From the IMG/VR virus record IMGVR_UViG_2563366903_000016: a stretch of 8,112 nucleotides of DNA, one strand, 5' to 3'. Positions 869 through 8,112 of the stretch are shown in pieces (the stretch's first letter is position 1; each line of letters opens with the position of its first letter). This DNA is from a virus (lineage: Duplodnaviria > Heunggongvirae > Uroviricota > Caudoviricetes). A program made the translations under genes and the position numbers. The notes beneath the pieces were generated by a model. That model was not told the origin of the DNA. It made no database searches and was given only the letters and a program-made list of their open reading frames with translations.

Positions 869-957
869 GGTGTGGCCTCTTCGTTTGTGAATTTTGAAAA
901 CTCACCAACCAGAGGTGGAAAACTCAGGGTGGCGAGACGTACAGGGTTTCCACAACC

Positions 958-993
958 GGCAAACGAAGAAACCGGCCCGACCGAAGTCGGCCC
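958..993 (-). terminator. candidate rho-independent terminator (minus strand)
   Basis: GC-rich stem 974-981 / 986-993 (8 bp, one mismatch) with a 4-nt loop that reads UUCG on the minus-strand RNA, followed on that strand by a U-rich stretch GGUUUCUUCGUUUG (958-973). Confidence 0.3.
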
Positions 994-1047
994 TGTACGC
1001 CCCGCCATAATTCTGACGCGAAAAAGACGTGGCGATACAGTACGCAC

Positions 1048-1089
1048 AAAAAAACCGCTGGCGCGGCTGTGCGCTTCGTTTGTCAGCGG
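1048..1089 (-). terminator. rho-independent terminator (minus strand)
   Basis: Inverted repeat CCGCTG (1055-1060) / CAGCGG (1084-1089) with extra internal GCGC pairing, followed immediately on the minus strand by seven U (A7 on + at 1048-1054). Confidence 0.45.
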
Positions 1090-1165
1090 GGTGGAAATCC
1101 CGGCACCCGTTTTATGAGGTGCAGCGGAAATGTAACCCGACACGACGAGCGCTGGCAAGCGGTTT

Positions 1166-5505: not shown

Positions 5506-5700
5506 TTACAGTGATTCGTCTCTTGTCAGCCTAAAAATCACTTCAGCCATGACTTCGCTAATTACATCGATCCCCTGATCGGTAAGGGCTTCTTTCCAGG
5601 CCTTGCTTGCACGTGTTGGATCCATCCTGCCTGATTGCTGTTGTATGATGATGAAGCGTAAATCGCTGTATAAGTCTTTTGTTTGAGTGGAGTCAGTCAT
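5506..5700 (-). CDS. hypothetical small protein (64 aa; possibly shorter, from internal ATG at 5625)
   Basis: ATG at 5700 with weak AAGG SD. Its start codon overlaps the start codon of the plus-strand gene on the opposite strand (CATG at 5698-5701). The internal ATG at 5625 has an AGGCAGG SD-like sequence. Confidence 0.4.
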   Translation of the reverse strand: MTDSTQTKDLYSDLRFIIIQQQSGRMDPTRASKAWKEALTDQGIDVISEVMAEVIFRLTRDESL

Positions 5701-6136
5701 GTCAATACCTTCAAATCTTGATGTTTTTAATGAAACAGTTGGTAAAACTTTTGCGTTTCTTTATGAAACTTTTCCCCGCAAAGTAACTATTGATATTTGT
5801 GCCTTAACCGGTGTTTCAGAGCTGACTTTTGAAGAAGACCGATCCTCCAGGAGGCAACTAGTTGAAGCTCTTGAGCTTCGCCGTGACTCCATCGCATGGC
5901 TTGTTGATGCTGGTTATGTATCCGCTAAATCTTCTCCTCCGCATTACTTTTCTGATGCGGTTCTCACGGCCAAAGGTCTTGAATTACTTAAGCTTGATCC
6001 AGAGTCACTTAAACAATCATTTGGCGACAAGCTTGTTGATGCAGCCAAGAGTGGCTCAATGGACGCGATAAAAAGCACCGCATCATCCGCTCTTACTACT
6101 GGGTTATCCTTTGCTTTCAAAAGTCTTCTTGGTTGA
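5699..6136 (+). CDS. hypothetical protein (145 aa) on the opposite strand in AT-rich DNA, candidate moron/accessory gene
   Basis: ATG at 5699 with GGAG 6 nt upstream (track start 5687 is an in-frame GTG). Coding region is visibly AT-richer than its flanks (by eye, not computed). Antisense to the early operon and convergent with cox. Candidate -10 TATAAG at 5669-5674; hairpin at 6179-6204 downstream. No family recognised. Confidence 0.55.
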   Translation: MSIPSNLDVFNETVGKTFAFLYETFPRKVTIDICALTGVSELTFEEDRSSRRQLVEALELRRDSIAWLVDAGYVSAKSSPPHYFSDAVLTAKGLELLKLDPESLKQSFGDKLVDAAKSGSMDAIKSTASSALTTGLSFAFKSLLG

Positions 6137-6178
6137 TTGTTGCGCCCCCGCATAACACCAACGATTAGATTATTTACG

Positions 6179-6204
6179 GCGAAATCTCCTGTTGTGGATT
6201 TCGC
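6179..6204. terminator. stem-loop between convergent genes (candidate terminator for the plus-strand gene)
   Basis: Perfect 8-bp inverted repeat GCGAAATC (6179-6186) / GATTTCGC (6197-6204) with a 10-nt loop. On the plus strand it is followed by a T-rich stretch (TGTGTGTTTGATATT, then T6 at 6227-6232); on the minus strand the following sequence is not U-rich. Confidence 0.3.
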
Positions 6205-6217
6205 TGTGTGTTTGATA

Positions 6218-6643
6218 TTAAGCTGCTTTTTTACTGATACGTTTATTCCGTGAACCAGCTGCTGGCTTAAATAAAAAAAGTCGGTTTTCCCATTCGTGCC
6301 ATTCTTGCGGTGCGTTTTCAGTGAGTCGATCGCAGGCTTCATCCCATGCTTTCCGGTTGATGTAAAGTTCGGCGTTTCCGCCAGGCTTGAGAGGGTCCGC
6401 CATGTACACAGCGGGTAATTTCCCTGCTTTTGCCATGCTCACGATGGCGTCAACGGTCTTGCCGATATACATCGCAAACCCTTCTTTTGACAGGAGATGA
6501 GAAGGGTTTTGTGAAAGCCTGATTTCTTGGCGTTCAGGGGCTTTGCGCCCGGTCTTTTGGTGTGCGGTTTCTGGCGCATCTGTCAACTGATCGCACTGTG
6601 TTTCGGCAGGCGATTCAGGCGCGTTTTGAGTGACTTCTTGCAT
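6218..6643 (-). CDS. cox: Cox-like excisionase/transcriptional regulator with an N-terminal acidic extension
   Basis: C-terminal ~85 aa (EGFAMYIGKTVDAIVSMAKAGKLPAVYMADP ... AELYINRKAWDE) match my recollection of P2 Cox (EFAKLIGKSTGAVRRMIDKGKLPVIDMTDP ... AGEYWVYLPAWN). ATG at 6643 has GGAGGA 5 nt upstream; an internal ATG at 6472 also has an SD (GAAGGG) but would remove conserved residues. Divergent from the repressor gene. Confidence 0.65.
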   Translation of the reverse strand: MQEVTQNAPESPAETQCDQLTDAPETAHQKTGRKAPERQEIRLSQNPSHLLSKEGFAMYIGKTVDAIVSMAKAGKLPAVYMADPLKPGGNAELYINRKAWDEACDRLTENAPQEWHEWENRLFLFKPAAGSRNKRISKKAA

Positions 6644-6750
6644 CTGGTATCCTCCGTTATTGGTGCTATTTCTATTTAGCACCAGTTAGAGCCGCCTAGA
6701 TTGTCTCTAGGTGTGTTTGTTGATGTATAAACTAAGAGAGTTAACTTACT
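6644..6750. promoter_or_regulatory. divergent cox/C promoter-operator (switch) region
   Basis: 107-bp intergenic region between divergent cox and C. Contains palindrome TGGTGCTA-n8-TAGCACCA (6661-6684) and palindrome CTAGA-n5-TCTAG (6696-6710). Candidate -10 TATAAA (6726-6731) for the repressor transcript. Exact promoters were not resolved. Confidence 0.5.
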
Positions 6751-7050
6751 ATGTCAACTAACGTAGGTGAAAAAATTAGAATCATGCGTAAGTCTGAAAT
6801 GCTTACACAAGAAAAAATGGCTGAAATTACAGGGCTCACGGTAGCGGCCCTGCGTCAATATGAACAGGGGAGAAATGAGCCAAATCTTGAATCCACAAAA
6901 AAGCTGCTCAAGTCTCCCGTCTTCCGTAAATACCGTGACTGGTTTTTGTTCGATGAGGTCGAACCAAAGGCCGGGCAGGTGGTACCGGCTCTCGCACACA
7001 TTGGGCGAAGCGAATCGGAATCACCCCACTCCGGCAAGAAGACTGGTTAA
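6751..7050 (+). CDS. C: P2 C-type immunity repressor (99 aa)
   Basis: Length and sequence match my recollection of P2 C: EKIRIMRKSE, ITGLTVAALRQYEQGR (HTH region), and C-terminal PALAHIGRSESESPHSGKKTG against P2 PALAHFGQNETTSPHSGQKTG. Sits immediately upstream of int on the same strand, as in P2. Confidence 0.85.
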   Translation: MSTNVGEKIRIMRKSEMLTQEKMAEITGLTVAALRQYEQGRNEPNLESTKKLLKSPVFRKYRDWFLFDEVEPKAGQVVPALAHIGRSESESPHSGKKTG

Positions 7051-7116: not shown

Positions 7117-8112
7117 ATGTCGATTAAGAAGCTCGCTGATGGCAAATACTGTGTGGACGTGCGGCCTGCTGGATCTGAAGGAAGAAGATTTCGGCGGCGA
7201 TTTCCTACCCGTGGTGAAGCGGCGATGTATGAACGCCATGTTCTGACGCATTATCACGATAAGGACTGGGTCGAAAAACCTATTGAACGTAAAGCGTTAA
7301 GCGATCTTCTGGAACTGTGGTGGGTGTACCACGGTAAGAATCATCGTTATGGCGCGATGAATCGGGTCAGAATTGAAGCGGTTCTTCGTGATATGCAAGA
7401 GCTTGGTATTAACAGAAGTGACCACTTAACCCGAAAAAATATTATCAGATATCGCCTTGAATTAATGAATCGCGGAATTAAGCAGTCAACGGTAAATCGT
7501 TATTGTGCAATGATGAGCGGTTTCTTTGAAAAGCTGATTGATGTTGAAGAGTTTGTGGGTGATAACCCGTTTCACGAGATACGCAAGCTAACAATTAATC
7601 AGCCGGAAATGGCTTATCTTGCACATGATGATATTCCCAGGCTAACCGCACTTTTATCTGGCGATAATCTTAAGGCTGTATTGTTAAGCCTGGCTACAGG
7701 CGGGCGCTGGAGTGAAGTTGCCAATATTAAAGGTGAACACATAATTGGTGGGAAGGTTATTTTTATGGAGACAAAGAATGGATCGCGGCGGGTTATTCCT
7801 ATAGCTAAAGATCTTGAATCTCTGATTAAAGTCAAAGCGACGGGAAGATTAATGAACCCCAGTTATGCGATAGTCAGAAGTGCAATAAGGACTGTGCGGC
7901 CTGATTTACCAGTCGGTCAGTCTGTGCATGTTTTACGGCACACATTCGCAACTCATTTCATGATTAATGGAGGGAACATTATTACCCTTCAGCGTATTTT
8001 AGGGCACAGCACAATTCAGCAAACAATGACCTATGCGCACTTTGCGCCTGATTATCTCCAGGACGCGGTAAGGTTCAATCCGGTTGCGGAGTTGTCCAGA
8101 TTTTGCCCATAA
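7117..8112 (+). CDS. int: tyrosine site-specific integrase (P2 Int-like)
   Basis: N-terminus MSIKKLADGKYCVDVRP resembles the P2 Int N-terminus. C-terminal catalytic region has HVLRHTFATHF (His and Arg box) and the tyrosine in TMTYAHF. ATG 7117 chosen over the track GTG 7081 by homology. Complete ORF; TAA stop at 8110-8112 is the last codon of the window. Confidence 0.9.
   Translation: MSIKKLADGKYCVDVRPAGSEGRRFRRRFPTRGEAAMYERHVLTHYHDKDWVEKPIERKALSDLLELWWVYHGKNHRYGAMNRVRIEAVLRDMQELGINRSDHLTRKNIIRYRLELMNRGIKQSTVNRYCAMMSGFFEKLIDVEEFVGDNPFHEIRKLTINQPEMAYLAHDDIPRLTALLSGDNLKAVLLSLATGGRWSEVANIKGEHIIGGKVIFMETKNGSRRVIPIAKDLESLIKVKATGRLMNPSYAIVRSAIRTVRPDLPVGQSVHVLRHTFATHFMINGGNIITLQRILGHSTIQQTMTYAHFAPDYLQDAVRFNPVAELSRFCP

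What the first reader, a model, noticed from the sequence alone, without database searches (positions are those of the whole stretch)
6218..6643. Cox-like protein with a ~40-aa acidic, low-complexity N-terminal extension
The Cox-homologous part occupies only the C-terminal ~100 residues. The ORF with the strongest RBS starts about 40 residues further upstream, adding a Pro/Glu/Thr/Gln-rich, probably disordered segment (QNAPESPAETQCDQLTDAPETAHQ) that I do not recall P2 Cox having. An extension on an excisionase/repressor-type protein could change oligomerisation or add a partner-binding function.
Basis: partly seen in the sequence, partly recalled or inferred. Interest (0 to 1): 0.35.

Follow-up and report, generated by a model that had tools for sequence, protein, structure and literature searches.

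The report
Long-form phage Cox with disordered tails
The gene is the ordinary Cox excision and lysis-switch regulator of a P2-family prophage in E. coli; its roughly 39-residue disordered N-terminal extension is real and almost certainly translated, but it is shared by a whole, already annotated subfamily of "long" Cox proteins and its function has not been tested.

Summary
**Observation: confirmed.**
- Window 6218..6643 (-) encodes a 141-aa protein. Pfam Phage_Cox covers residues 40-120.
- P2 Cox (PDB 4LHF) residues 14-79 align to residues 53-117, so there are about 39 extra N-terminal residues.
- The ATG at 6643 follows GGAGGA plus a 6-nt spacer. This SD-ATG block is conserved from E. coli to Salmonella. 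No other usable start codon is conserved.
- The extension has three parts: a conserved tip MQE-x-T-Q-N, a variable acidic stretch (net charge -6, dN/dS about 0.4, AlphaFold pLDDT below 50), and a conserved basic arm (dN/dS about 0).

**The extension is not unusual.**
- RefSeq already annotates this exact CDS as WP_001561239.1. Phage P88 gp03 is 141 aa and 84% identical.
- 118 complete homologues from several enterobacterial genera have N-terminal segments with a median of 39 aa (maximum 80).
- PHROGs has a separate family for the long form (phrog_1831). Nilsson et al. 2011 noted a larger "group 2" Cox.

**Function: inferred only.**
- The likely role is a basic DNA-contact arm plus an acidic disordered tail that tunes DNA binding or filament formation.

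**Also noticed.**
- 93 of 118 homologues end in Ala-Ala, which suggests a ClpXP degron.
- C4 and isrK RNAs lie elsewhere in the window.

**Verdict:** low interest, already known.

The parts
6218..6643 (-). cox gene, long form (141 aa plus stop). [quoted passage not shown]
   Evidence: ORF list. Pfam Phage_Cox E 1.1e-27. phrog_1831 E 2.8e-50. RefSeq CDS WP_001561239.1 has identical coordinates. 84% identical to phage P88 gp03.
6650..6655 (-). Shine-Dalgarno sequence GGAGGA, 6 nt upstream of the ATG.
   Evidence: Sequence read. The block GGAGGATA(T/C)CAG-ATG is conserved in 9 of 9 loci from E. coli and Salmonella.
6620..6643 (-). Codons 1-8: conserved N-terminal tip MQEVTQNA (family motif M-Q-E-x-[T/A]-Q-N).
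   Evidence: Counts of the first 7 residues across 118 homologues. Synonymous differences (CAA/CAG, GAA/GAG, ACT/ACA) show conservation at the amino-acid level.
6557..6619 (-). Codons 9-29: variable acidic, low-complexity segment, predicted disordered.
   Evidence: Residues 1-29 carry a net charge of -6. pLDDT is below 50. dN/dS is 0.40 against P88. In homologues the N-terminal segment varies in frame from 24 to 80 aa and is rich in E, A, T and V.
6506..6556 (-). Codons 30-46: conserved basic arm KTGRKAPERQEIRLSQN, immediately before strand beta1.
   Evidence: Net charge +3. 9 synonymous against 3 non-synonymous changes versus P88, so dN/dS is about 0. The same pattern K-x-x-R-K-x-P-E-R-E-E-I-R-L appears in Salmonella homologues.
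6269..6505 (-). Codons 47-125: winged helix-turn-helix core plus the C-terminal helices that mediate oligomerisation in P2 Cox.
   Evidence: AF2 elements E50-52, H53-60, H64-72, E78-81, E92-96, H97-110, H113-121 with pLDDT 74-93 for the blocks covering residues 51-120. Foldseek top hit is 4LHF, E 1.1e-4, TM-score on target 0.73. dN/dS is 0.01.
6221..6268 (-). Codons 126-141: basic, disordered C-terminal tail ending in Ala-Ala.
   Evidence: Residues 128-141 carry a net charge of +5. pLDDT is low. 93 of 118 homologues end in AA although the tail before it is variable.
6729..6757 (-). Probable early promoter Pe: TTGACA (6757-6752), 17 nt, TAGTTT (6734-6729). The -35 overlaps the start codon of the C repressor gene.
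   Evidence: This is the same geometry as the annotated P2 Pe (TTGACA-17-TAGTAT, with the -35 over the C start codon and the cox ATG 121 nt from the -35; here the distance is 114 nt). The generic promoter scan did not report it, so this is an inference from homology.
6661..6684 (-). 8-bp inverted repeat or hairpin (UGGUGCUA...UAGCACCA) just upstream of the SD.
   Evidence: The 5' UTR folds with a z-score of -3.8. The stem is kept in 9 loci, with two pairs showing changes on both sides. It lies where the P2 Pc promoter sits, 18-43 nt upstream of the cox ATG.
6751..7050 (+). P2 C-type immunity repressor gene (99 aa, HTH), divergent from cox.
   Evidence: Pfam HTH_3. phrog_147 E 1.2e-32. The position matches that of P2 C.
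7117..8112 (+). Tyrosine integrase gene downstream of C.
   Evidence: Pfam Int_N plus Phage_integrase. RefSeq CDS WP_001561241.1.

Best explanation
**Shown**
- This is the genuine Cox protein of a P88-like (Xuanwuvirus, Peduoviridae) prophage of E. coli. By homology with P2 Cox it would act as excision directionality factor and repressor of the lysogenic promoter.
- It belongs to a widespread "long Cox" subfamily. In this subfamily the P2-type winged-helix core is flanked by an N-terminal extension and a basic C-terminal tail.

**Strongly inferred**
- Translation starts at the ATG at 6643, so the extension is part of the protein.
- The extension has three parts:
  - a conserved tip, M-Q-E-x-T-Q-N;
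  - an acidic, disordered spacer of variable length and sequence;
  - a conserved basic arm, K-x-x-R-K-x-P-E-R-x-E-I-R-L, leading directly into strand beta1.

**Inferred mechanism, not tested**
- The basic arm lies next to the DNA-facing sheet and wing, and gives extra DNA contacts.
- The acidic tail acts as an electrostatic brake. It would compete with non-specific DNA and limit or solubilise the Cox filament, so that DNA binding and oligomerisation are tuned rather than changed in kind.

The confidence figure refers to the identity, the start site and the commonness of the extension. My confidence in the electrostatic mechanism itself is only about 0.3.
For: **Identity**
- Pfam Phage_Cox at 96 bits.
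- 4LHF is the only PDB sequence hit and the top fold hit.
- The gene order cox / C / int and the promoter geometry are as in P2.

**Start site**
- The SD-ATG block is conserved in 9 of 9 loci.
- The upstream GTG at 6682 is not conserved. In 4 of the 8 homologue loci an in-frame stop lies within 12 codons upstream of the ATG, and 5 of the 8 have no in-frame start codon upstream at all.
- The only downstream candidates are a TTG at codon 20 with no SD and an ATG at codon 58. Codon 58 lies inside helix alpha1 and is Leu in most homologues.

**Coding constraint**
- dN/dS against P88 is about 0 for the basic arm, 0.40 for the acidic part and 0.01 for the core, with dS about 0.8 throughout.
- All length variation is in frame.

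**Commonness**
- 137 homologues, nearly all 117-178 aa.
- The median N-terminal segment is 39 aa. The acidic part has a median charge of -5 and the arm +3.
- Relatives at 34-36% identity (P0133, P0135) repeat the acidic-then-basic layout.
- phrog_1831 is a separate long-form family with a 121-position profile.
- Nilsson 2011 (PMC3448106) reports that group 2 Cox proteins are larger.

**Disorder**
- pLDDT is below 50 for residues 1-30.

**Mechanism precedent**
- Acidic disordered regions are known to autoinhibit or tune DNA-binding domains (PMC10250230).
- P2 Cox forms DNA-wrapping filaments with the helix and wing facing outward (PMC3936717).
Against: - There is no experimental evidence for the start codon or for any role of the extension.
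- Net charge of the acidic part does not co-vary with the charge of the C-terminal tail (Spearman rho -0.01). I found no sign of charge compensation between the two tails.
- The conserved N-terminal tip is not explained by a purely electrostatic model. It points rather to a specific contact, or to constraints on translation initiation.
- AlphaFold shows no docking of the tail onto the domain. That is uninformative for fuzzy interactions.
Confidence: 0.85

Rival explanations
1. The extension is a tethered short linear motif. The conserved tip (M-Q-E-x-T-Q-N) is held on a flexible acidic linker and binds a partner. Candidates are the integrase, the C repressor, a host factor or a protease adaptor. 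This would give long Cox a protein-protein function that P2 Cox lacks, which is.
For: - The tip is conserved at the amino-acid level across E. coli and Salmonella despite synonymous changes, while the linker between tip and domain varies so that the whole N-terminal segment ranges from 24 to 80 aa.
- Other genera have a related tip, M-x-[D/V]-E-A-K-T.
- From general knowledge: the lambda Xis tail binds Int, which is a precedent for directionality-factor tails contacting recombinases.
Against: - No partner was identified and no known motif class matches.
- Codons 2-7 are A-rich and sit in the translation-initiation region, so part of the conservation may act at the RNA level. There are no synonymous changes in codons 1-8 between the window and P88.
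- Peduovirus forms of 118-123 aa (D8, NC_070906) have quite different tips, MEDSKVT and MSIGSEM.
Confidence: 0.2
2. The acidic segment is tolerated, nearly neutral low-complexity sequence. It would be expanded and contracted by slippage or duplication and have no specific function. Only the basic arm and the core matter.
For: - There is high sequence and length variability, and dN/dS of 0.4 is the most relaxed of the N-terminal parts.
- Salmonella variants look like internal expansions.
- More distant members with short N-termini exist: P0128 (112 aa) and P0129 (100 aa).
Against: - The negative charge is maintained in almost all of 107 distinct sequences (median -5, range -11 to +1) and increases with length (rho -0.73).
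- The acidic-then-basic layout recurs at 34-36% identity.
- dN/dS is still below 1.
Confidence: 0.25
3. The extension is not translated. The real start lies downstream and gives a P2-sized protein of about 90-100 aa. Alternatively, the real start is the upstream GTG at 6682, giving 154 aa.
For: - P2 Cox is only 91 aa.
- In this window the reading frame stays open up to the GTG at 6682.
Against: - There is no canonical start codon between codon 20 and codon 58. Codon 20 (TTG) has no SD. Codon 58 lies within the conserved helix and is Leu in most homologues.
- The upstream GTG lacks an SD, and in-frame stops lie just upstream of the ATG in several homologues.
- The basic arm is under strong purifying selection in this frame.
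Confidence: 0.03

Closest known systems
Bacteriophage P2 Cox (91 aa; PDB 4LHF; Pfam PF10743, phrog_272)
   Same: - Same fold order, beta1-alpha1-turn-alpha2-beta2-loop-beta3-alpha3-alpha4.
- 35% identity over the core.
- Same position as first gene of the early operon, facing C and int, with the same Pe geometry.
   Different: - P2 Cox has no N-terminal extension, while this protein has 39 extra residues.
- P2 Cox has no basic C-terminal tail and ends GEPR rather than KKAA.
- Net charge of the core region is about -1 here, against +3 for the whole of P2 Cox.
Escherichia phage P88 gp03 (YP_009113046.1, 141 aa; Xuanwuvirus) and RefSeq WP_001561239.1
   Same: - Same length and same architecture. 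P88 gp03 is 84% identical, and WP_001561239.1 is the identical protein.
- Same neighbouring genes: C, int and a DUF4761 gene.
   Different: - The acidic segment differs at 10 of 21 positions (residues 9-29).
- P88 lacks the convergent 145-aa ORF found here just downstream of cox.
- No functional study of P88 Cox exists. The P88 paper does not mention cox.
"Group 2" Cox proteins of Nilsson et al. 2011 (PMC3448106) / phrog_1831
   Same: - They are described as Cox-type winged-helix proteins that are larger than group 1 (P2-type).
- The Cox of the Pectobacterium atrosepticum SCRI1043 prophage, a genome used in that study, is among the homologues found here (P0106).
- phrog_1831 matches residues 25-133 with E 2.8e-50.
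   Different: - Equating group 2 with this family is my inference, because the supplementary alignment was not read.
- The paper only notes the larger size. It does not dissect or explain the extension.
Lambda Xis and coliphage 186 Apl (winged-helix recombination directionality factors)
   Same: - They are small winged-helix proteins that form filaments or cooperative arrays on direct repeats.
- Like Cox, 186 Apl has a dual role as excisionase and transcriptional regulator.
   Different: - There is no detectable sequence similarity here.
- Lambda Xis carries its disordered tail at the C-terminus, where it is reported to bind Int (my own knowledge). Neither protein has an acidic N-terminal extension.

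Membership tests
Phage_Cox (Pfam PF10743; P2 Cox family) | Sequence match to the family model above the curated threshold | tested here: met
   96.1 bits against a cut-off of 27.5; residues 40-120 cover model positions 1-86 of 87.
Phage_Cox (Pfam PF10743; P2 Cox family) | Winged helix-turn-helix fold followed by two C-terminal helices | tested here: met
   The AF2 model has the same order of elements, with pLDDT 74-93 for the blocks covering residues 51-120. Foldseek's best PDB hit is 4LHF, E 1.1e-4, TM-score on target 0.73. This rests on a predicted, not a solved, structure.
Phage_Cox (Pfam PF10743; P2 Cox family) | First gene of the early operon, divergent from the C repressor and integrase genes, with face-to-face promoters | tested here: met
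   cox (-) 6218-6643, C (+) 6751-7050, int (+) 7117-8112. TTGACA overlaps the C start codon as in the annotated P2 Pe.
Phage_Cox (Pfam PF10743; P2 Cox family) | Size of about 90 aa with no terminal extensions (P2, W-phi type) | tested here: not met
   141 aa, with 39 extra N-terminal and about 12 extra C-terminal residues. Size is typical of, but not defining for, the Pfam family.
Phage_Cox (Pfam PF10743; P2 Cox family) | Binds cox boxes, represses Pc and is required for excision | not testable with these tools
   This needs EMSA or footprinting, reporter assays and excision assays.
Long-form Cox (phrog_1831; probably Nilsson group 2) | Match to the long-form profile, including part of the N-terminal segment | tested here: met
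   phrog_1831 E 2.8e-50; residues 25-133 cover profile positions 11-119 of 121. phrog_272 (P2 type) gives only E 5.4e-9.
Long-form Cox (phrog_1831; probably Nilsson group 2) | Acidic N-terminal segment followed by a basic arm before L-L-S-K-E-G-F-A | tested here: met
   The alignments of 26 and 121 sequences show this layout throughout.
ClpXP substrates with an ssrA-like C-terminal degron (ending Ala-Ala-COOH) | Accessible, disordered C-terminus ending in Ala-Ala | tested here: met
   The protein ends KKAA. 93 of 118 homologues end in AA despite variable tails. The tail has low pLDDT. The role of Ala-Ala is described in PMC7652416.
ClpXP substrates with an ssrA-like C-terminal degron (ending Ala-Ala-COOH) | ClpXP-dependent degradation that is abolished by changing AA to DD | not testable with these tools
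   This needs half-life measurements in wild-type and clpX or clpP mutant cells.

The most novel reading that the evidence does not exclude
The two disordered tails of long-form Cox may form a regulatory module that P2 Cox lacks.
- The conserved C-terminal Ala-Ala would make Cox a ClpXP substrate, acting as a timer on the lytic and excision signal.
- The acidic N-terminal tail, with its conserved tip, would gate this or gate DNA and filament binding. For example, it could mask the basic arm or tail until Cox assembles on DNA, or it could recruit a partner such as the integrase.

That would be a new layer of post-translational control in the P2-type lysis-lysogeny switch.
Probability: 0.15. Interest if true: 0.45.

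Novelty: already known. Interest (0 to 1): 0.15.

Why it matters
**Practical value.** The 141-aa gene model is right, so the extension should not be trimmed as a start-site error. P2 Cox (91 aa, the only member with a solved structure) is not representative of many Cox proteins in enterobacterial prophages.

**Biological value.** This is modest and only potential. No one appears to have tested what the acidic tail, the basic arm or the Ala-Ala end contribute to a protein that works by wrapping DNA around a filament. Truncation and stability experiments in P88 or a similar phage would be simple to do. They could show how disordered tails tune a recombination directionality factor.

Tried and rejected
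- **Upstream GTG at 6682 as start (154 aa).** Rejected. It has no SD, and in 4 of the 8 homologue loci an in-frame stop lies within 12 codons upstream of the ATG.
- **Internal starts.** The TTG at codon 20 has no SD. The ATG at codon 58 lies inside the conserved helix and is Leu in most homologues.
- **A conserved antisense gene under the extension** (the + strand ORF 6527..6679). The open antisense frame is not the same from one homologue to the next.
- **The perfect 10-nt inverted repeat inside cox** (6476-6485 / 6500-6509) as an RNA or DNA element. It is not conserved in any homologue, so it is chance.
- **Charge compensation between the acidic N-tail and the basic C-tail.** No correlation, rho -0.01.
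- **PADLOC and NCBIfam.** No hits for Cox or for the neighbouring 145-aa ORF.
- **Generic sigma-70 scan.** It did not report a promoter upstream of cox. I placed Pe by homology with the annotated P2 promoter instead.
- **Mandali 2010 paper on phage D145**, which might describe a long-form Cox experimentally. It is not held in the library.
- **Rfam.** No known RNA family lies in or next to the cox region.

Full report
**1. What is in the sequence**

The minus strand of the window carries an ORF from the ATG at 6643 to the stop at 6218-6220, encoding 141 aa. GGAGGA at 6655-6650 lies 6 nt before the ATG.

Pfam Phage_Cox (PF10743) matches residues 40-120 at 96.1 bits, against a cut-off of 27.5. 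The only PDB sequence hit is P2 Cox (4LHF), whose residues 14-79 align to residues 53-117. BLASTP against P2 Cox gives 35% identity with an offset of 39 residues. So the protein has about 39 N-terminal residues that P2 Cox lacks. It also has a C-terminal tail about 12 residues longer than P2 Cox.

An AlphaFold2 model built on a 26-sequence alignment gives the P2 Cox order of elements: E50-52, H53-60, H64-72, E78-81, E92-96, H97-110, H113-121. The 10-residue blocks covering residues 51-120 have mean pLDDT of 74-93. pLDDT is below 50 for residues 1-30 and 133-141. Foldseek's best PDB match is 4LHF, with E 1.1e-4 and a TM-score on the target of 0.73.

**2. Context**

The window is 100% identical to a prophage in the chromosome of E. 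coli DETEC-S792. The prophage's int end lies next to chpS/chpB and ppa. RefSeq annotates exactly this CDS as "Cox family DNA-binding protein", WP_001561239.1.

The gene order is cox (-), then a 99-aa P2 C-type HTH repressor (+, 6751-7050), then a tyrosine integrase (+, 7117-8112). This is the P2 switch in mirror image.

In the annotated P2 record, the Pe -35 (TTGACA) overlaps the C start codon. The -10 (TAGTAT) follows after 17 nt, and the cox ATG is 121 nt from the -35. The window has TTGACA at 6757-6752 overlapping the C ATG, then 17 nt, then TAGTTT at 6734-6729, and the cox ATG is 114 nt from the -35.

The intergenic spacers are also alike, 107 nt here and 114 nt in P2. The extra residues therefore come from longer coding sequence, not from a start codon moved into the spacer. 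The predicted transcript includes the ATG at 6643. This placement of Pe is an inference from homology. The generic promoter scan did not flag it.

**3. Is the extension translated?**

All the computational evidence says yes.

- (a) The block GGAGGATA(T/C)CAG-ATG is conserved in nine loci from E. coli and Salmonella whose proteins are only about 60% identical.
- (b) The upstream GTG at 6682 is not conserved. In 4 of the 8 homologue loci an in-frame stop lies within 12 codons upstream of the ATG, and 5 of the 8 have no in-frame start upstream at all.
- (c) Downstream there are only two candidates. One is a TTG at codon 20 with no SD. The other is an ATG at codon 58, which lies inside helix alpha1 and is Leu in most homologues.
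- (d) Substitution patterns against P88, with dS about 0.8 throughout, are as follows:

| Segment | Residues | Result |
|---|---|---|
| Acidic part | 9-29 | dN/dS 0.40 |
| Basic arm | 30-46 | about 0 (9 synonymous, 3 non-synonymous changes) |
| Core | 47-125 | 0.01 |
| C-terminal tail | 126-141 | 0.53 |

- (e) Homologues differ by up to about 40 residues in this segment, and always in frame.

**4. Anatomy of the extension**

It has three parts.

- Residues 1-8 form a conserved tip. MQE[N/S/D/V][A/T]QN and its M[L/H/E]E variants account for about 75 of 118 complete homologues. The conservation holds at the amino-acid level, with synonymous differences present.
- Residues 9-29 are an acidic low-complexity spacer. 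Residues 1-29 carry a net charge of -6. Family-wide, the acidic part has a median charge of -5, is rich in E, A, T and V, and becomes more negative as it gets longer (rho -0.73).
- Residues 30-46 are a basic arm (KTGRKAPERQEIRLSQN, net +3) that runs straight into strand beta1.

The C-terminal tail (residues 126-141; 128-141 carry net +5) is also disordered. It ends in Ala-Ala.

**5. How common is it?**

Very common within this branch of the family.

- The word-indexed search found 137 homologues, nearly all 117-178 aa. They come from E. coli (141 aa), Salmonella (mostly 135 aa, up to 178), Yersinia, Erwinia, Rahnella, Pectobacterium, Serratia, Ewingella and Enterobacter. Scandinavium, Pseudescherichia and E. 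albertii loci were found in genomes.
- Isolated phages have it too: P88 gp03 (141 aa, 84% identical, annotated full length), D8, 11W and 12W (Cox of 123 aa in D8), a "Peduovirus P2" assembly NC_070906 (118 aa) and Yersinia phage vB_YpM_117 (118 aa).
- Among 118 complete-looking homologues, the segment before the conserved Pro47 has a median of 39 aa and reaches 80 aa. It is 24 aa or longer in all 107 distinct complete sequences.
- The exhaustive search of 50%-identity representatives found only 24 clusters. They range from short-N forms (P0128, 112 aa; P0129, 100 aa) to forms at 34-36% identity (P0133, 180 aa; P0135, 161 aa). The latter again show a long acidic stretch followed by a K/R cluster.
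- PHROGs keeps the long form as its own family. phrog_1831 has a 121-position profile and scores E 2.8e-50. The P2 type, phrog_272, scores E 5.4e-9.
- Nilsson et al. 2011 (PMC3448106) split Cox proteins into groups 1 and 2 and stated that group 2 proteins are larger, without explaining why. Their data set included the Pectobacterium SCRI1043 prophage, whose Cox is homologue P0106 here.

**6. How it most likely works**

Shown: identity, fold, gene context and coding constraint.

Inferred from P2 (PMC3936717): the core binds DNA as a helical filament with the recognition helix and wing facing outward. The C-terminal helices mediate oligomerisation.

Strand beta1 belongs to the sheet that carries the wing. 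A conserved basic arm immediately before beta1 should therefore lie near the wrapped DNA and add contacts. The acidic disordered tail would project from the filament.

Acidic disordered regions next to DNA-binding domains are known to autoinhibit or sharpen DNA binding electrostatically (PMC10250230). I therefore favour an electrostatic tuning or solubilising role, at about 0.3 confidence.

The conserved tip fits that model poorly. It keeps the tethered-motif (partner-binding) rival alive at about 0.2. A near-neutral spacer is a further rival at about 0.25. I found no charge co-variation between the two tails (rho -0.01).

**7. Comparison with known systems, and novelty**

It works like P2 Cox and meets every sequence, fold and context criterion I could test for the Phage_Cox family. 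The exception is the typical size of about 90 aa, which is not a defining feature. It is a member of the long-form subfamily.

The exact protein is already in RefSeq, and a near-identical one is in a published phage genome. The P88 paper does not discuss cox. I found no paper addressing the function of the extension.

Verdict: already known as a feature, functionally uncharacterised, low interest.

**8. Things noticed in passing**

- 93 of 118 homologues end in Ala-Ala even though the preceding tail is variable. Ala-Ala-COOH is the key determinant of ssrA-type ClpXP degrons (PMC7652416). P2 Cox ends GEPR.
- An 8-bp hairpin or inverted repeat at 6684-6661 sits just upstream of the SD. It is conserved, with a few compensatory changes, and lies where P2 has its Pc promoter.
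- Rfam finds C4 antisense RNA (925-1012, -) and isrK (1048-1122, -). They lie under a + strand "hypothetical protein" in RefSeq.
- A convergent 145-aa ORF (5699-6136, +; phrog_2266, unknown function) is inserted just downstream of cox. It is absent from P88 and from three other E. coli prophages.

Noticed in passing
window 6221-6226 (last two codons of cox); tail at 6221-6268: The long-form Cox proteins end in Ala-Ala in 93 of 118 homologues (101 of 118 end in Ala), although the 8-25-aa basic tail before it varies in length and sequence. P2 Cox ends GEPR. This looks like an ssrA-type ClpXP degron and suggests that Cox level is controlled by proteolysis.
   Followed up: partly
window 925-1012 (-) and 1048-1122 (-): Rfam gathering-score hits to C4 antisense RNA (RF01695, 82 bits) and isrK (RF01394, 64 bits). 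This is a P1-type c4 / isrK antirepressor-control module inside a P2-family prophage. RefSeq places a + strand "hypothetical protein" CDS (window 930-1118) directly over these RNAs, which is probably a mis-call.
   Followed up: no
window 6661-6684: An 8-bp inverted repeat or hairpin (TGGTGCTA N8 TAGCACCA) immediately upstream of the cox SD. The stem is kept in 9 E. coli and Salmonella loci, with some changes on both sides (GGTGCT/AGCACC against GGTTCC/GGAACC). It lies where P2 has its Pc promoter, so it could be an operator or promoter element, or a stem-loop in the 5' UTR.
   Followed up: partly
window 5699-6136 (+), with hairpin 6175-6208: A 145-aa ORF convergent with cox, inserted between cox and the downstream early genes and followed by a terminator-like hairpin. 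It matches only phrog_2266 (unknown function) and has no Pfam, NCBIfam or PADLOC hit. It is absent from P88 and from three other E. coli prophages with the same cox, so it behaves like a moron. Early transcripts from Pe must read through it in antisense.
   Followed up: partly
window 6695-6711: A second small hairpin (CCTAGA N5 TCTAGG) in the predicted cox 5' UTR / Pe-Pc overlap region. The whole 98-nt leader folds better than shuffled sequences (z-score -3.8).
   Followed up: no
L001 (phage P88) 5282-5500: P88, which is inducible by mitomycin C, encodes a "derepression protein" (gp14) downstream of the early genes. Together with the C4/isrK module in the window, this suggests that the phage group has an antirepressor route to induction that classical P2 lacks.
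   Followed up: no
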